A stretch of 64,000 bases of DNA from Escherichia coli (GCF_003334255.1 NZ_QOWU01000013.1), one strand, 5' to 3'; shown: positions 39,017-45,375, counted from the first letter of the stretch. The notes: generated by a model not told the origin, from the letters alone. Numbers and translations: made by a program.

Positions 39017-40636
39017 ATGGCCAAAGCACCAACTAAAAAAGCCAAAGCAAAGAAAGGCTTTGAAGAAACATTATGGGATACCGCAAACCAACTTCGCGGT
39101 AGCGTTGAGTCCTCCGAATACAAGCACGTGGTGTTGAGCCTCGTGTTCCTGAAATTCATCAGCGACAAATTTGAAGCACGCCGCAAAAAAATGATTGCCG
39201 ATGGGCAAGCTGACTTCCTTGAGATGGAAGTGTTCTACCAGCAGGACAACATTTTCTACCTGCCGGAAGAGGCGCGCTGGTCTTTTATCAAACAAAATGC
39301 CAAACAGGACGATATTGCGGTCCGTATTGACACCGCCCTCTCGACCATTGAGAAACGTAACCCCACCCTGAAAGGCGCGCTGCCAGACAACTACTTCAGC
39401 CGTCAGAATCTGGAAACCAAAAAACTGGCGTCACTGATTGATACCATCGACAACATCGAAACGCTGGCACACGAAACTGACGTTGAAACGTTATCGAAAG
39501 AAGACCTGGTGGGACGCGTTTACGAATACTTCCTCGGCAAGTTTGCCGCAACCGAAGGCAAAGGCGGTGGTGAGTTCTACACGCCAAAATGTGTGGTTAC
39601 ACTGTTAACTGAAATGCTCGAACCCTTCCAGGGCAAAATTTATGACCCGTGCTGCGGCTCGGCAGGGATGTTCGTGCAGTCGGTGAAGTTTGTCGAGAGC
39701 CATCAGGGTAAAAGCCGTGATATCGCGCTGTATGGTCAGGAACTGACAGCCACGACGTATAAACTGGCAAAAATGAACCTCGCCATTCGGGGTCTTTCAG
39801 CTAACCTCGGCGAACGCCCGGCAGACACCTTCTTTAGCGACCAGCACCCGGACCTGAAAGCCGACTACATTCTGGCGAACCCGCCGTTCAACCTGAAAGA
39901 CTGGCGTAATGAAGCCGAATTAACCAAAGATCCACGTTTTGCCGGTTATCGTATGCCGCCAACCGGTAACGCCAACTACGGCTGGATTTTGCATATGCTC
40001 TCCAAGCTGTCGGCTAACGGCACAGCAGGTTTTGTGCTGGCAAACGGTTCGATGAGTTCTAACACCAGCGGTGAAGGCGAGATCCGTGCGCAGATGATCG
40101 AAAATGATCTGATCGACTGCATGATCGCCCTACCTGGACAGTTGTTCTACACCACGCAGATCCCGGTGTGTTTATGGTTTATGACCAAATCGAAGGCTGC
40201 CGACCCGGCCAAAGGTTATCGTGATCGTCAGGGCGAGACGCTGTTTATTGATGCGCGTAACCTCGGCACCATGATTAGCCGCACAACTAAAGAGTTAACA
40301 GCGGAAGATATTGCCACCATCGCCGATACTTACCATGCCTGGCGCAGCACGCCGGAAGAACTGGCTGCACGGATTGCGCGTGGTGACAGCAAGCTGGAAA
40401 AATATGAAGACCAGGCAGGCTTCTGCAAAGTCGCGACCCTGCAAGATATTAAAGATAACGACTATGTGCTGACGCCGGGCCGCTATGTGGGTGCAGCCGA
40501 GCAGGAAGAGGACGGCGTGGCATTTGAGACGAAAATGCGCGAATTGTCGAAGACGTTGTTTGAGCAGATGAAGCAGGCGGAAGAACTGGATCGTGCGATT
40601 CGCCAGAATCTGGAGGGGTTAGGTTATGGGAAGTAA
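39017..40636 (+). CDS. hsdM: type I restriction-modification DNA methyltransferase subunit (N6-adenine)
   Basis: 539-aa ORF with SAM motif IYDPCCGSAGMF and catalytic NPPF; not the K-12 EcoKI HsdM sequence. Confidence 0.9.
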   Translation: MAKAPTKKAKAKKGFEETLWDTANQLRGSVESSEYKHVVLSLVFLKFISDKFEARRKKMIADGQADFLEMEVFYQQDNIFYLPEEARWSFIKQNAKQDDIAVRIDTALSTIEKRNPTLKGALPDNYFSRQNLETKKLASLIDTIDNIETLAHETDVETLSKEDLVGRVYEYFLGKFAATEGKGGGEFYTPKCVVTLLTEMLEPFQGKIYDPCCGSAGMFVQSVKFVESHQGKSRDIALYGQELTATTYKLAKMNLAIRGLSANLGERPADTFFSDQHPDLKADYILANPPFNLKDWRNEAELTKDPRFAGYRMPPTGNANYGWILHMLSKLSANGTAGFVLANGSMSSNTSGEGEIRAQMIENDLIDCMIALPGQLFYTTQIPVCLWFMTKSKAADPAKGYRDRQGETLFIDARNLGTMISRTTKELTAEDIATIADTYHAWRSTPEELAARIARGDSKLEKYEDQAGFCKVATLQDIKDNDYVLTPGRYVGAAEQEEDGVAFETKMRELSKTLFEQMKQAEELDRAIRQNLEGLGYGK

Positions 40637-42017
40637 TGGCTTCAAGTTACCTCTAGGATGGAATTGTAAAAAACTGGTTGATTGTACAAAGGAGGGAAAT
40701 ATCTCTTATGGTATTGTTCAACCAGGTCAGCATCAAGAAGATGGCATTGGTATTATTCGTGTAAATAATATACAAAATGGAAATATTTACATAGACGATG
40801 TTCTGAAGGTTTCTCATGAAATAGAAAGTAAATTTGCCAAAACTAGGTTAGAAGGAGGAGAAGTACTTTTAACACTAGTGGGTTCCACTGGAATTAGCGC
40901 CATTACAACTAAAGCACTACAGGGATGGAATGTTGCTCGTGCCGTAGCCGTAATTAAGCCATGCGATGAAATAAGTGCAGAGTGGATACATATTTGCCTC
41001 CAATCACCTTTTACAAAATATTTTTTGGATTCCAGAGCTAATACTACTGTTCAGAAAACTCTCAATCTCAAAGACGTGAAAGAAATTCCATTACCAATTC
41101 CTCCACATGAGGAAAGAGTAAGTCTTGAGAAAATTTACTTCAATTTTGAGAATAGAATAAACTTAAATATAAAAATTAATAAAATCCTAGAAGAAATGTC
41201 ACAAAACCTGTTCAAATCCTGGTTTGTAGATTTTGATCCGGTGGTTGATAACGCTCTGGATGCAGGAAACCCAATTCCGGAAGCCCTGCAATCTCGCGCC
41301 GAATTGCGTCAAAAAGTACGTAATAGTGCAGATTTTAAACCGCTTCCGGCGGAAATCCGCTCGCTTTTCCCAAGTGAATTTGAAGAAACGGAGTTGGGTT
41401 GGATGCCAAAGGGATGGCAAATTAAATCATTAGATCATATTGCTAATTTCCAGAATGGTTTGGCTTTACAAAAATTTAGGCCGAAGAATATGGAGGATGA
41501 TTATTTACCTGTATTAAAAATAGCAGATCTCCGAGCAGGACAAATAACTAATGACGAACGAGCAAGAACTGATATTTCTGATAGTTGTAAGGTGTATGAC
41601 GGCGATATGATTTTCTCATGGTCGGGGACTTTGATGATCGATATTTGGACTGGTGGGAATGCTGCATTAAATCAGCATTTATATAAGGTCACATCAAAAA
41701 AATACCCACAATCTTTTTATTTTATGTGGACAATACAGCATCTTTCAAGATTTCAACATATTGCAGAGGCAAAAGCGGTAACAATGGGGCACATCAAAAA
41801 AGGAGATTTAAGTAACTCTTTCTGTCTAATTCCTACTTCATCGTTGATTACTAAATATGATAATATCGTTGGAGGATATTTAGCGAAGATTAAAAATCAA
41901 AGATTGTTAAATAACCAAATGACCGCCCTACGCGACACCCTGCTCCCGAAACTCATCTCCGGCGAGCTATCCCTGGACGATATTCCGGATCTCAACACCG
42001 ATACAGAAGCTGCATAA
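40626..42017 (+). CDS. hsdS: type I restriction-modification specificity subunit
   Basis: 463-aa ORF overlapping the hsdM stop by 11 nt; two AT-rich segments separated by a GC-normal central region. Confidence 0.85.
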   Translation: MGSNGFKLPLGWNCKKLVDCTKEGNISYGIVQPGQHQEDGIGIIRVNNIQNGNIYIDDVLKVSHEIESKFAKTRLEGGEVLLTLVGSTGISAITTKALQGWNVARAVAVIKPCDEISAEWIHICLQSPFTKYFLDSRANTTVQKTLNLKDVKEIPLPIPPHEERVSLEKIYFNFENRINLNIKINKILEEMSQNLFKSWFVDFDPVVDNALDAGNPIPEALQSRAELRQKVRNSADFKPLPAEIRSLFPSEFEETELGWMPKGWQIKSLDHIANFQNGLALQKFRPKNMEDDYLPVLKIADLRAGQITNDERARTDISDSCKVYDGDMIFSWSGTLMIDIWTGGNAALNQHLYKVTSKKYPQSFYFMWTIQHLSRFQHIAEAKAVTMGHIKKGDLSNSFCLIPTSSLITKYDNIVGGYLAKIKNQRLLNNQMTALRDTLLPKLISGELSLDDIPDLNTDTEAA

Positions 42018-45000: not shown

Positions 45001-45375
45001 GATACATTCAGTCAGGAAATGACCGATATTATCTATGATATTAAAACCGAAATGGGCACATGGGCCGATTTAGGTATTGATATTGAAGAAAAAGCGTTTT
45101 TCGACATTCTTGCTCATATGCGCGATAAATATCAGTTCACCTATGACGATGAAAAAATGCTGTCACTGGCAAAAGAGATGAAAAGCGTGGTTGACAACAC
45201 ATCGAAATATCCTGACTGGAGTAAACGCGATGATATTAAAGCGAAACTGAAAGTTGAACTTATTCTGCTTCTACACAAGCATAAGTTCCCGCCAGTAGCA
45301 AATGATGATGTTTATATGGGTGTGCTGGCACAGGCAGAGAATTTTAAAGAACATCATATGAGTGCTTTAAATTAA
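42100..45375 (+). CDS. hsdR: type I restriction enzyme R subunit (helicase/endonuclease)
   Basis: 1091-aa ORF with helicase motifs (GCGKSYT Walker A-like; DEAH-like ICISDEAHRSQ); the likelier start is ATG 42112 (GGAG 8 nt upstream). Confidence 0.9.
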   Translation: MERDMSLSFSEAKLEQAIIELLQDQGYQHLIGDNVPRSTLDQVIIEDDLRHYLAARYQPDGITEEEIQRLIKQFTTLPASDLYESNKTFCRWLANGFLFKRDDRQKKDLYIELLDTRHLPAALRQIFDAEDVPLQQAAELPPSYINPPLNRIKIVNQLKISGKDNQTRIPDGILYINGLPLVVFEFKSAVREQEANIGDAWKQLCKRYRRDIPQLFIYNALCIISDGVNNRMGNLFAPYEYFYSWRKVTGNENREQDGIPSLHSMIQGLFHPVRLLDVIKNFICFPDKAKHEVKICCRYPQYYAARKLYYSIKQARKPFGSGKGGTYFGATGCGKSYTMQFLTRLLMKSVEFASPTIVLITDRTDLDDQLSAQMCNAKNYIGDDTIVPVTSREDLRNQLAGRNSGGVFLTTIHKFTEDTELLSERSNIICISDEAHRSQVNLDQKVIVDKESGKVRKTYGFAKYLHDSLPNATYVGFTGTPIDATLDVFGEVIDSYTMTESVQDEITVRIVYEGRAAKVILDSSKLEEVEKYYEECANAGTNEWQIDESKKATATMNAVLGDEDRLKALAEDFAKHYEKRVAEGSTVKGKAMFVCASREIAWDFYRQLKVIRPAWFEVKQAPDGVVLTEQEQKELPPSEMVKMVMTRGKDDDEALYDLLGTKEYRKELDKQFKNAKSNFKIAIVVDMWLTGFDVPELDTIYIDKPLQKHNLIQTISRVNRKLEGKSKGLVVDYIGIKSQMNQALAMYSRIDATNFEDIQQSVIEVKNHLDLLGQVFYEFDSRDYFSGEPQAQLSCLNRAAEFVLRTQKVERRFMGLVKRMKAAYDVCCGSEALSQTERDHIHYYLAVRSIVFKLTKGDAPDVTQMNARVREMIAEALKADGVEEIYFLGDKKAESIDIFDEDYLARINKIKLPATKIQLLQKLLEKAISDFKKVNQLQGINFTRRFQAIIDRYNERREDDVLNGEEFDTFSQEMTDIIYDIKTEMGTWADLGIDIEEKAFFDILAHMRDKYQFTYDDEKMLSLAKEMKSVVDNTSKYPDWSKRDDIKAKLKVELILLLHKHKFPPVANDDVYMGVLAQAENFKEHHMSALN

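What the first reader, a model, noticed from the sequence alone, without database searches (positions are those of the whole stretch)
39017..45375. Type I R-M operon in hsdM-hsdS-hsdR order, not the EcoKI allele
HsdM and HsdR here do not match the K-12 EcoKI sequences I recall, and the order is M-S-R with hsdS overlapping hsdM by 11 nt and hsdR separated by a structured 82-bp spacer. This indicates a different type I family occupying the hsd locus and therefore a different recognition specificity.
Basis: partly seen in the sequence, partly recalled or inferred. Interest (0 to 1): 0.55.

Follow-up and report, generated by a model that had tools for sequence, protein, structure and literature searches.

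The report
Known Type ID restriction system in E. coli
This is an intact three-gene Type I restriction-modification system of the already described Type ID family, sitting in the well-known variable "immigration control region" of the E. coli chromosome where K-12 carries EcoKI, so it is real but ordinary.

Summary
hsdM (39017-40636), hsdS (40626-42017) and hsdR lie in M-S-R order on the + strand, and hsdM and hsdS overlap by 11 nt. One correction: hsdR most likely starts at the conserved ATG at 42112, not the TTG at 42100, so the spacer is 94 bp, not 82.

The window is E. coli chromosome, 100% identical here to ATCC 11775 and S88. The genes sit between yjiA and symE, the classic hsd/immigration control region. 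HsdM and HsdR are only about 24-27% identical to EcoKI (Type IA) and to the CFT073 EcoAI-type system (IB), and only distantly related to EcoR124I (IC). They are 91-99% identical to counterparts in other E. coli, Klebsiella and Salmonella. A 2025 review finds only IA, IB and ID systems at this locus, so this is Type ID by elimination.

The HsdS protein is identical to the old UniProt entry Q9ZEK7. Its first DNA-recognition domain resembles the EcoBI domain that reads TGCT/AGCA. Both points fit EcoR9I, AGCA(N6)TGA, but I could not confirm that identity.

The spacer forms two hairpins that are conserved across genera, probably a partial terminator.

Novelty: already known.

The parts
36974..45458 (.). 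Variable cassette of the immigration control region relative to K-12. It carries brnA, brnT, a Mrr-like pseudogene, hsdM, hsdS and hsdR, and replaces K-12's mrr-hsdR-hsdM-hsdS.
   Evidence: In blastn of the window against K-12, homology ends at 36973 (end of yjiA) and resumes at 45459 (symR/symE).
37014..37590 (-). brnA-brnT toxin-antitoxin pair (brnA 37014-37316, brnT 37303-37590).
   Evidence: PGAP annotation of the identical ATCC 11775 sequence. The review PMC12707154 lists brnAT among the toxin-antitoxin systems of this region.
37787..38953 (+). Mrr-like (Mrr_cat / NA-iREase1) restriction endonuclease gene, inactivated here by a nonsense codon (TGG to TGA at 38405-38407, W207*). It is the conserved upstream neighbour of hsdM in this cassette.
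   Evidence: PGAP marks it 'internal stop'. It is intact at 388 aa in ATCC 25922 and Klebsiella, which have TGG at that codon. It co-occurs with the hsd operon: 880 genomes hold most of it, against 853 for the operon.
39017..40636 (+). hsdM, N6-adenine methyltransferase subunit, 539 aa.
   Evidence: NCBIfam TIGR00497 hsdM, E 2.4e-51, below the curated cut-off. AdoMet motif DPCCGSAG at aa 210-217 and catalytic NPPF at aa 288-291. Best solved relative is 3khk, E 7e-135. 24% identical to EcoKI M, 26.5% to the CFT073 IB M.
40626..42017 (+). hsdS, specificity subunit, 463 aa. Layout: TRD1 about 40626-41140, central conserved region about 41143-41420, TRD2 about 41421-41926, C-terminal conserved region 41927-42017.
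   Evidence: Only the central and C-terminal parts match at 90-95% in 868 genomes. The full allele is in 31 of 5426 genomes. The sequence is identical to UniProt Q9ZEK7_ECOLX. TRD1 is 36% identical (E 5e-26) to EcoBI TRD2.
42018..42111 (+). 94-bp hsdS-hsdR spacer. Hairpin 1 is at 42026-42045 (7 bp, 6 of them G-C) and is followed by UUUCUGGU. Hairpin 2 is at 42046-42089 (11+5 bp). The Shine-Dalgarno GGAG is at 42102-42105.
   Evidence: Fold z = -4.3 to -4.4. Flagged as terminator-like by the scan. Stems are invariant in E. coli, Klebsiella and Salmonella. One compensatory pair in Raoultella. Photorhabdus has the same two-hairpin layout with a different sequence.
42112..45375 (+). hsdR, translocase/endonuclease subunit, 1087 aa.
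   Evidence: NCBIfam TIGR00348 hsdR, 465.5 bits against a cut-off of 284.55. Nuclease motif D...EFK at aa 160-183, Walker A GCGKS at 328-332, DEAH at 429-432, TGTP at 474-477, QTISRVNR at 709-716. EcoR124I HsdR matches only at E 4e-24. 91% identical to Klebsiella and 91.7% to Salmonella orthologues.
45520..45929 (.). Right-hand conserved flank: symR antisense RNA (45520-45596, - strand) and symE (45591-45929, + strand).
   Evidence: Rfam RF01809 symR, 95.3 bits. NCBIfam SymE, E 8e-66.

Best explanation
This is a chromosomal Type I restriction-modification system of the Type ID family, whose prototypes are StySBLI, EcoR9I and KpnAI. It occupies the allelic hsd position of the E. coli immigration control region.

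How it most likely works:
- hsdM and hsdS are translated as a coupled pair through their 11-nt overlap, and assemble into an M2S1 methyltransferase.
- That enzyme N6-methylates one adenine in each half of a bipartite target. The two recognition domains of HsdS set the target.
- Adding two HsdR subunits gives the R2M2S1 enzyme. On an unmethylated target it pulls DNA in using ATP and cuts at a distance, which restricts incoming phage and plasmid DNA.
- The two conserved hairpins between hsdS and hsdR most likely act as a leaky terminator or RNA-stability element, keeping HsdR below HsdM and HsdS.
- This hsdS allele is probably EcoR9I, target AGCA(N6)TGA.

Shown here: gene content, intact catalytic motifs, locus, family-level sequence relationships, the hairpins and their conservation.

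Inferred: activity, the target sequence, the EcoR9I identity, and the role of the spacer.
For: Locus:
- The genes lie between yjiA and symE, where K-12 has mrr-hsdRMS.

Type I identity:
- NCBIfam hsdR scores above its cut-off, and there is an hsdM hit.
- Orthologues carry Pfam HsdM_N/N6_Mtase, Methylase_S, and HSDR_N/ResIII/SWI2_SNF2.
- All catalytic motifs are intact.

Not IA, IB or IC:
- HsdM is 24% identical to EcoKI and 26.5% to the CFT073 EcoAI-type M.
- HsdR is 25% identical to EcoKI over 219 aa and has no real match to IB.
- The EcoR124 M matches only at E 1e-38 and the R at E 4e-24.

One coherent family:
- HsdM and HsdR are 99.3% identical among E. coli alleles and 91-94% identical to Klebsiella and Salmonella. 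HsdS is only 35-47% identical.
- This fits the published family rule of more than about 70-90% within a family and less than about 30% between families (PMC2481252; PMC10030836).

Type ID by elimination:
- PMC12707154 reports that Type I systems at this locus in 9,040 Enterobacteriaceae genomes are IA 14%, IB 11% and ID 12%, which together make up the 36% total. It also lists brnAT, symE-symR and rpn as companions. All of these are present here.

Allele:
- HsdS is identical to Q9ZEK7_ECOLX.
- TRD1 is 36% identical (E 5e-26) to the EcoBI TRD that reads TGCT, which is AGCA on the other strand. It is only 26% identical to any EcoKI TRD.
- EcoR9I = AGCA(N6)TGA comes from PMC12707154 Table 1.

Spacer.
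Against: - No reference sequence of StySBLI, EcoR9I or KpnAI was available in any tool, so Type ID membership rests on elimination plus a review's census, not on a direct alignment.
- The link Q9ZEK7 = EcoR9I is my inference from the age and name of the entry.
- TRD2 is only 24% identical to the EcoBI TGA domain, which is near background.
- NCBIfam hsdM scores below its curated cut-off (175 against 242.75 bits).
- No expression, methylation or restriction data exist here for this strain.
- The neighbouring Mrr-like gene is a pseudogene, which shows that the cassette can decay.
- For the spacer, the stems are almost invariant among close relatives, so covariation support is thin, and the U-tract after hairpin 1 is weak.
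Confidence: 0.85

Rival explanations
1. It is a Type I family that is none of IA-IE: an unnamed family that happens to sit at the hsd locus.
For: No direct alignment to a Type ID prototype could be made. The papers with those sequences are not held, and a database search returned no named StySBLI or EcoR9I protein. NCBIfam has no family-specific model for it; only generic hsdM and hsdR models hit.
Against: The review's census of this locus accounts for all Type I systems as IA + IB + ID (14+11+12 against a total of 36%). This cassette is far too common (16-21% of E. coli genomes) to have been left out. Its spread over E. coli, Klebsiella and Salmonella matches the known ID members EcoR9I, KpnAI and StySBLI. 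The S. xylosus study groups hsdMSR-order operons with StySBLI.
Confidence: 0.07
2. It is a chromosomal Type IC (EcoR124I-like) system, since it shares the hsdM-hsdS-hsdR gene order.
For: The gene order is the same. EcoR124I HsdR is the only solved HsdR that matches.
Against: The match is far below family level: HsdR E 4e-24 over about 370 aa, HsdM E 1e-38. The review found no Type IC at this locus in 9,040 genomes.
Confidence: 0.02
3. The genes are intact, but the system is silent or restriction-deficient in this strain (for example methylation only, or not expressed), like the decayed Mrr-like gene beside it.
For: The adjacent Mrr-like gene carries a nonsense mutation. Other strains show IS1 insertions in hsdM of this same allele (strain G5) and in EcoBI hsdS of BL21. 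No clear sigma-70 promoter was found directly upstream of hsdM or hsdR.
Against: All three ORFs are full length and every catalytic motif is intact. The operon is 100% identical across dozens of genomes from unrelated strains. Three other E. coli Type I systems at this locus were all shown to be active (PMC8287963).
Confidence: 0.1
4. The spacer hairpins are not a regulator of hsdR. They are either a full terminator with a separate unrecognised hsdR promoter, or a neutral remnant.
For: In Proteus the equivalent position has a canonical terminator (stem followed by UUUUUGUU) and a 249-bp spacer, which suggests separate transcription units. V. cholerae has no structure at all.
Against: The 66 nt downstream of hairpin 1 contain no match to the sigma-70 consensus (and by eye). 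The spacer is more conserved between genera than the flanking coding sequence, which argues against neutrality.
Confidence: 0.3

Closest known systems
Type ID restriction-modification systems (StySBLI of Salmonella Blegdam, EcoR9I of E. coli ECOR9, KpnAI of Klebsiella)
   Same: Chromosomal and allelic at the immigration control region. Found in E. coli, Klebsiella and Salmonella with more than 90% identical HsdM and HsdR. Distinct from IA, IB and IC. The HsdS is identical to an old E. coli 'HsdS protein' entry (Q9ZEK7), and TRD1 fits the AGCA half-site of EcoR9I.
   Different: Nothing found. Identity to the prototypes could not be measured directly, and the 6-bp spacing of methylated adenines that marks the family is untested.
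EcoKI (Type IA), the K-12 occupant of the same locus
   Same: Same chromosomal position between yjiA and symE. Same three-subunit logic. hsdM and hsdS overlap and are probably translationally coupled (PMC3510504).
   Different: Gene order is R-M-S against M-S-R here. The overlap is 1 nt against 11 nt. HsdM is 24% identical and HsdR 25% over 219 aa. HsdR is 1170 aa against 1087 aa. The neighbours are mrr and mcrBC rather than brnAT and a different Mrr-like gene.
EcoR124I (Type IC)
   Same: hsdM-hsdS-hsdR order with a non-coding gap before hsdR. HsdR is of similar length (1038 against 1087 aa). It is the nearest solved HsdR structure.
   Different: It is plasmid-borne, with only distant sequence similarity. 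Type IC is not found at this locus.
EcoAI-type (Type IB) system of CFT073 and O157:H7
   Same: Allelic at the same locus, next to symE.
   Different: R-M-S order, shorter HsdM (489 aa) and longer HsdS (589 aa). HsdM is 26.5% identical and HsdR has no significant match.

Membership tests
Type I restriction-modification systems (general) | Three linked genes encoding a methyltransferase (HsdM), a specificity subunit (HsdS) and a helicase-nuclease (HsdR) | tested here: met
   NCBIfam hsdR 465.5 bits (cut-off 284.55). hsdM E 2.4e-51, below its cut-off. HsdS-type hits. Pfam domains of orthologues that are more than 90% identical.
Type I restriction-modification systems (general) | Intact catalytic motifs: AdoMet-binding and NPPF in HsdM; PD-(D/E)xK nuclease and DEAD-box motifs in HsdR | tested here: met
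   DPCCGSAG 210-217 and NPPF 288-291 in HsdM. D..EFK 160-183, GCGKS 328-332, DEAH 429-432, TGTP 474-477 and QTISRVNR 709-716 in HsdR.
Type I restriction-modification systems (general) | HsdS with two variable target recognition domains separated by conserved regions | tested here: met
   868 genomes match only nt about 518-792 and about 1302-1392 of hsdS at 90-95%. The TRDs differ.
Type I restriction-modification systems (general) | ATP-dependent translocation and cleavage away from a bipartite, hemimethylation-sensing target | not testable with these tools
   Needs biochemistry or in vivo restriction assays.
Type IA (EcoKI/EcoBI) | HsdM and HsdR at least about 80-90% identical to family members; hsdR-hsdM-hsdS order | tested here: not met
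   HsdM 24%, HsdR 25% over 219 aa. The order here is M-S-R.
Type IB (EcoAI/EcoEI) | HsdM and HsdR at least about 80-90% identical to family members; short HsdM and long HsdS | tested here: not met
   Against the CFT073 EcoAI-type system: HsdM 26.5%, HsdR only a 42-aa match. Sizes are 539/463 aa here against 489/589 aa.
Type IC (EcoR124I) | Family-level identity to EcoR124I subunits; usually plasmid-borne | tested here: not met
   HsdR E 4e-24 and HsdM E 1e-38 only. 1247 of 1249 matching places are chromosomal. The M-S-R gene order is shared.
Type ID (StySBLI/EcoR9I/KpnAI) | HsdM and HsdR family-level identity to StySBLI, EcoR9I or KpnAI | not testable with these tools
   No prototype sequence could be obtained. 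Indirect support only: HsdS is identical to Q9ZEK7_ECOLX.
Type ID (StySBLI/EcoR9I/KpnAI) | Allelic with IA and IB at the serB-linked hsd locus (immigration control region), and the only non-IA, non-IB family found there | tested here: met
   Located between yjiA and symE. Review census: IA + IB + ID equals all Type I at this locus.
Type ID (StySBLI/EcoR9I/KpnAI) | One family shared by E. coli, Salmonella and Klebsiella | tested here: met
   HsdR is 91.0% identical in Klebsiella and 91.7% in Salmonella. HsdM is 93.9% identical in Klebsiella.
Type ID (StySBLI/EcoR9I/KpnAI) | Methylated adenines separated by 6 bp; subunit complementation with StySBLI | not testable with these tools
   Needs a methylome and genetic complementation. 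The family values are in PMC12707154 Table 1.
Type IE (KpnBI) | Family-level identity to KpnBI. From my memory of Chin et al. 2004: a very long hsdM (about 2.6 kb) overlapping hsdS by 1 nt. | tested here: inconclusive
   hsdM here is 1620 bp with an 11-nt overlap, which does not fit what I recall. The review lists no IE at this locus.

The most novel reading that the evidence does not exclude
The two-hairpin element between hsdS and hsdR would be a dedicated regulatory device of Type ID systems. It is invariant across E. coli, Klebsiella and Salmonella, and is rebuilt with a different sequence in Photorhabdus. As a leaky terminator or RNA-stability switch it would set the HsdR:HsdM/S ratio, or delay restriction when the cassette enters a new host. 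That would be a transcriptional answer to the establishment problem, which IA solves by ClpXP proteolysis and IC by assembly control. I found no description of this, but the primary Type ID papers were not readable here.
Probability: 0.3. Interest if true: 0.3.

Novelty: already known. Interest (0 to 1): 0.1.

Why it matters
It matters little beyond annotation. The finding correctly shows that this strain does not carry EcoKI. DNA prepared in K-12 will therefore be unmodified for this host, and cloning or transformation into strains such as ATCC 11775 or S88 will face a different Type I barrier. That barrier is probably AGCA(N6)TGA, with adenines 6 bp apart. The window is a textbook case of cassette-like replacement at the immigration control region: the same operon is 100% identical in many different E. 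coli strains, while only 31 of 5426 complete genomes share this particular specificity gene. The one point that may not yet be described is the conserved hairpin pair ahead of hsdR.

Tried and rejected
- Primary literature. I tried to read the papers that define Type ID and the locus: Titheradge 2001 (PMC60208), Sibley & Raleigh 2004 (PMC373321), Chin 2004 (PMC524312) and Kasarjian 2004 (PMC434458). None is held.
- Full-text searches for 'Q9ZEK7' and for the motif strings AGCANNNNNNTGA and TCANNNNNNTGCT found nothing.
- A large protein search with HsdS found more than 7000 relatives with shuffled recognition domains. None of the 120 listed carried a StySBLI, EcoR9I or KpnAI name. The first cluster look-up failed because of a queue and worked on retry.
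- TTG at 42100 as the hsdR start: rejected. It is not conserved in Klebsiella or Salmonella, and the Shine-Dalgarno spacing fits the ATG at 42112.
- A sigma-70 promoter for hsdR in the spacer: none found by scan or by eye.
- Phase variation or an invertible hsdS: no meaningful inverted or direct repeats in or around hsdS, and no second hsdS or recombinase.
- The spacer as a known RNA family: the only Rfam hit in 36000-48000 was symR.
- Formal covariation on the spacer: stems are nearly invariant among close relatives and the Photorhabdus copy misaligns. Only two compensatory pairs were counted, so the case rests on independent refolding.

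
Full report
**What is in the sequence**

NCBIfam assigns the three proteins to hsdM, an HsdS-type specificity subunit, and hsdR. The hsdR hit scores 465.5 bits against a cut-off of 284.55.

The hsdM/hsdS overlap is 11 nt. A GGAGG lies nine bases ahead of the hsdS ATG, and the hsdM TAA stop follows just after it. This is the usual arrangement for translational coupling of M and S (PMC3510504).

One detail needs correction. The likely hsdR start is the ATG at 42112:
- It has a GGAG six bases upstream.
- PGAP uses it in the identical ATCC 11775 sequence.
- It is conserved in Klebsiella and Salmonella, where the TTG reads CCG.

The spacer is therefore 94 bp (42018-42111), not 82. 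The same 11-nt overlap and 94-bp spacer are annotated in four other E. coli hsdS alleles (ATCC 25922 and MNCRE44 share one allele).

**Where it is**

The segment is 100% identical to the chromosomes of E. coli ATCC 11775, S88, MS7163, E110019 and others. 1142 of 5426 complete E. coli genomes have a match, and 853 cover at least 80% of the operon.

The annotated order is tsr, btsT, yjiX, yjiA, then brnA, brnT, a restriction endonuclease pseudogene, hsdM, hsdS and hsdR, then symE, yjiS, yjiR, rpn, mdtM and yjiN. In K-12 the same flanks enclose mrr-hsdR-hsdM-hsdS, then symE, then mcrBC-yjiV-yjiT.

By blastn, homology to K-12 stops at 36973 (end of yjiA) and resumes at 45459 (symR/symE). The mcrBC-yjiT block is absent.

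So this is the classic serB-linked hsd locus, the 'immigration control region'. The cassette here is window 36974-45458.

**Which family**

HsdM is 24% identical to EcoKI HsdM. HsdR aligns to EcoKI HsdR at 25% over only 219 residues.

Against the EcoAI-type (IB) system of CFT073, HsdM is 26.5% identical and HsdR has no real match.

Against solved structures, EcoR124I/II (IC) subunits match only distantly: HsdR E 4e-24, HsdM E 1e-38. The best HsdM relative is an archaeal protein, 3khk.

Within its own group the picture is the reverse:

| Subunit | Other E. coli alleles | Klebsiella | Salmonella |
|---|---|---|---|
| HsdM | 99.3-99.4% | 93.9% | not compared |
| HsdR | 99.3% | 91.0% | 91.7% |
| HsdS | 35-47% | 35% | not compared |

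That is the published signature of a Type I family: more than about 70-90% identity within, less than about 30% between (PMC2481252; PMC10030836).

A 2025 EcoSal Plus review surveyed this locus in 9,040 Enterobacteriaceae genomes. It found Type IA (14%), IB (11%) and ID (12%), which together account for all Type I systems there (36%). Type IC was absent. The companions were Type IV enzymes and the brnAT, symE-symR and rpn toxin-antitoxin systems (PMC12707154).

A very common cassette at this locus that is neither IA nor IB, and that has brnAT, symE/symR (Rfam 95.3 bits) and rpn beside it, is therefore Type ID. Another study groups hsdMSR-order operons with the ID prototype StySBLI.

I could not align to StySBLI, EcoR9I or KpnAI directly. 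The primary papers are not held and no tool gave their sequences. The assignment is by elimination, and I put it at about 0.85-0.9.

**Which allele, and what it probably recognises**

Only 31 of 5426 genomes carry this complete hsdS. A further roughly 840 share just the central (nt about 518-792) and C-terminal (nt about 1302-1392) conserved regions at 90-95%. These define the layout TRD1 / conserved / TRD2 / conserved.

The protein is identical to UniProt Q9ZEK7_ECOLX, 'HsdS protein'. This is a late-1990s entry. I infer, but could not verify, that it is the EcoR9I sequence from the Murray laboratory.

As an independent check I rebuilt EcoBI HsdS from the IS1-split gene of BL21(DE3):
- TRD1 here (aa 26-164) is 36% identical, 63% similar, E 5e-26, to EcoBI TRD2. 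That domain reads TGCT, which is AGCA in the domain's own frame.
- The best match of TRD1 to any EcoKI TRD is 26%, E 3e-7.
- TRD2 is only 24% identical to the EcoBI TGA domain.

The review lists EcoR9I as AGCA(N6)TGA, with methylated adenines 6 bp apart. The AGCA half fits well and the TGA half is uninformative. I put the EcoR9I identity at about 0.6.

**How it most likely works**

All catalytic motifs are intact:
- HsdM: AdoMet motif DPCCGSAG and NPPF.
- HsdR: D..EFK nuclease motif, GCGKS, DEAH, TGTP and QTISRVNR.

The standard Type I mechanism is therefore expected. M2S1 methylates both half-sites. R2M2S1 translocates and cleaves when the site is unmodified. This follows from established knowledge of the family and was not tested here.

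Three other E. coli Type I systems at this locus were each shown to be active and not phase-variable (PMC8287963). Nothing here suggests phase variation.

**The spacer**

The spacer folds into two abutting hairpins:
- Hairpin 1 is at 42026-42045 (GCCCCUG/CAGGGGC) and is followed by UUUCUGGU.
- Hairpin 2 is at 42046-42089, and its 5' arm is that same U-rich run.

The z-score is -4.3 to -4.4, and none of 200 shuffles folded as well. The scan flags hairpin 1 as terminator-like. It finds no sigma-70 promoter in the spacer.

Conservation in relatives:
- Across E. coli, Klebsiella and Salmonella the stems are invariant and the loops vary. The spacer is better conserved than the adjacent codons.
- Raoultella has one compensatory G-C to C-G change in hairpin 1.
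- Photorhabdus has the same two-hairpin layout built from a different sequence, z = -4.5.
- Edwardsiella and Plesiomonas have one long hairpin. Proteus has a canonical terminator and a 249-bp spacer. Aeromonas has a G+C-rich hairpin. V. cholerae has none.

My reading is that this is a leaky terminator or RNA-stability element that keeps hsdR expression below hsdMS. This is an inference at about 0.5, with a separate unrecognised hsdR promoter as the main rival.

**Verdict**

The family, its gene order, its location and its companions are already described, and this allele is probably a named enzyme. Interest is low.

Noticed in passing
window 37787-38953 (stop codon at 38405-38407): The Mrr-like restriction endonuclease gene just upstream of hsdM is a pseudogene here. 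A single TGG to TGA change gives W207*. It is intact (388 aa; Mrr_cat + NA-iREase1) in ATCC 25922, ST131 strain MNCRE44 and Klebsiella, and travels with the hsdMSR cassette in about 880 genomes.
   Followed up: yes
window 37014-37590 (- strand): A brnA-brnT toxin-antitoxin pair lies between yjiA and the restriction cassette, diverging from the Mrr-like gene. K-12 has mrr at this position instead.
   Followed up: partly
window 45520-45929: The symR antisense RNA (Rfam 95.3 bits) overlaps the 5' end of symE, immediately downstream of hsdR. symE is only about 93% identical to K-12, while the next block (yjiS onward) is about 96%. mcrBC, yjiV and yjiT are absent between symE and yjiS.
   Followed up: partly
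window 38422, 34936 and about 45490: The window is not exactly ATCC 11775. It differs by two substitutions (34936, 38422) and a 1-nt indel near 45490 in the hsdR-symR intergenic region, so it comes from a close relative rather than that assembly.
   Followed up: partly
L006/L007 (Salmonella enterica), 1500-8000: A Salmonella locus has an HsdR that is 91.7% identical and has the conserved spacer. Upstream, the expected hsdM and hsdS are replaced by a NERD/UvrD-like helicase, a short S-like gene (191 aa), an N6_Mtase/Eco57I gene (417 aa) and about 2 kb with only small ORFs. This is possibly a rearranged or decaying cassette.
   Followed up: no
hit H20 (strain G5) and hits H8-H10: In strain G5 the same hsd allele has an IS1 inserted in hsdM. 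Strains G1/2, G6/7 and G8 each show three matching places, so extra copies of this family exist elsewhere in those chromosomes, perhaps at the leuX hotspot.
   Followed up: no
window about 54400-56600, and about 59100 to the end: A low-G+C stretch (GC 0.38 near 54000-55000) encodes a 698-aa pentapeptide-repeat protein between yjiL/DUF3343 and the SdiA-regulated-domain gene. An inverse autotransporter gene, iatD, runs off the window end. Both are accessory relative to K-12.
   Followed up: no
window 40500-42500 and 44000-45500: G+C falls to 0.38-0.42 over hsdS and the 3' third of hsdR, against about 0.50-0.55 in the flanks. This fits recognition domains and the HsdR tail having been imported from lower-G+C donors.
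   Followed up: no
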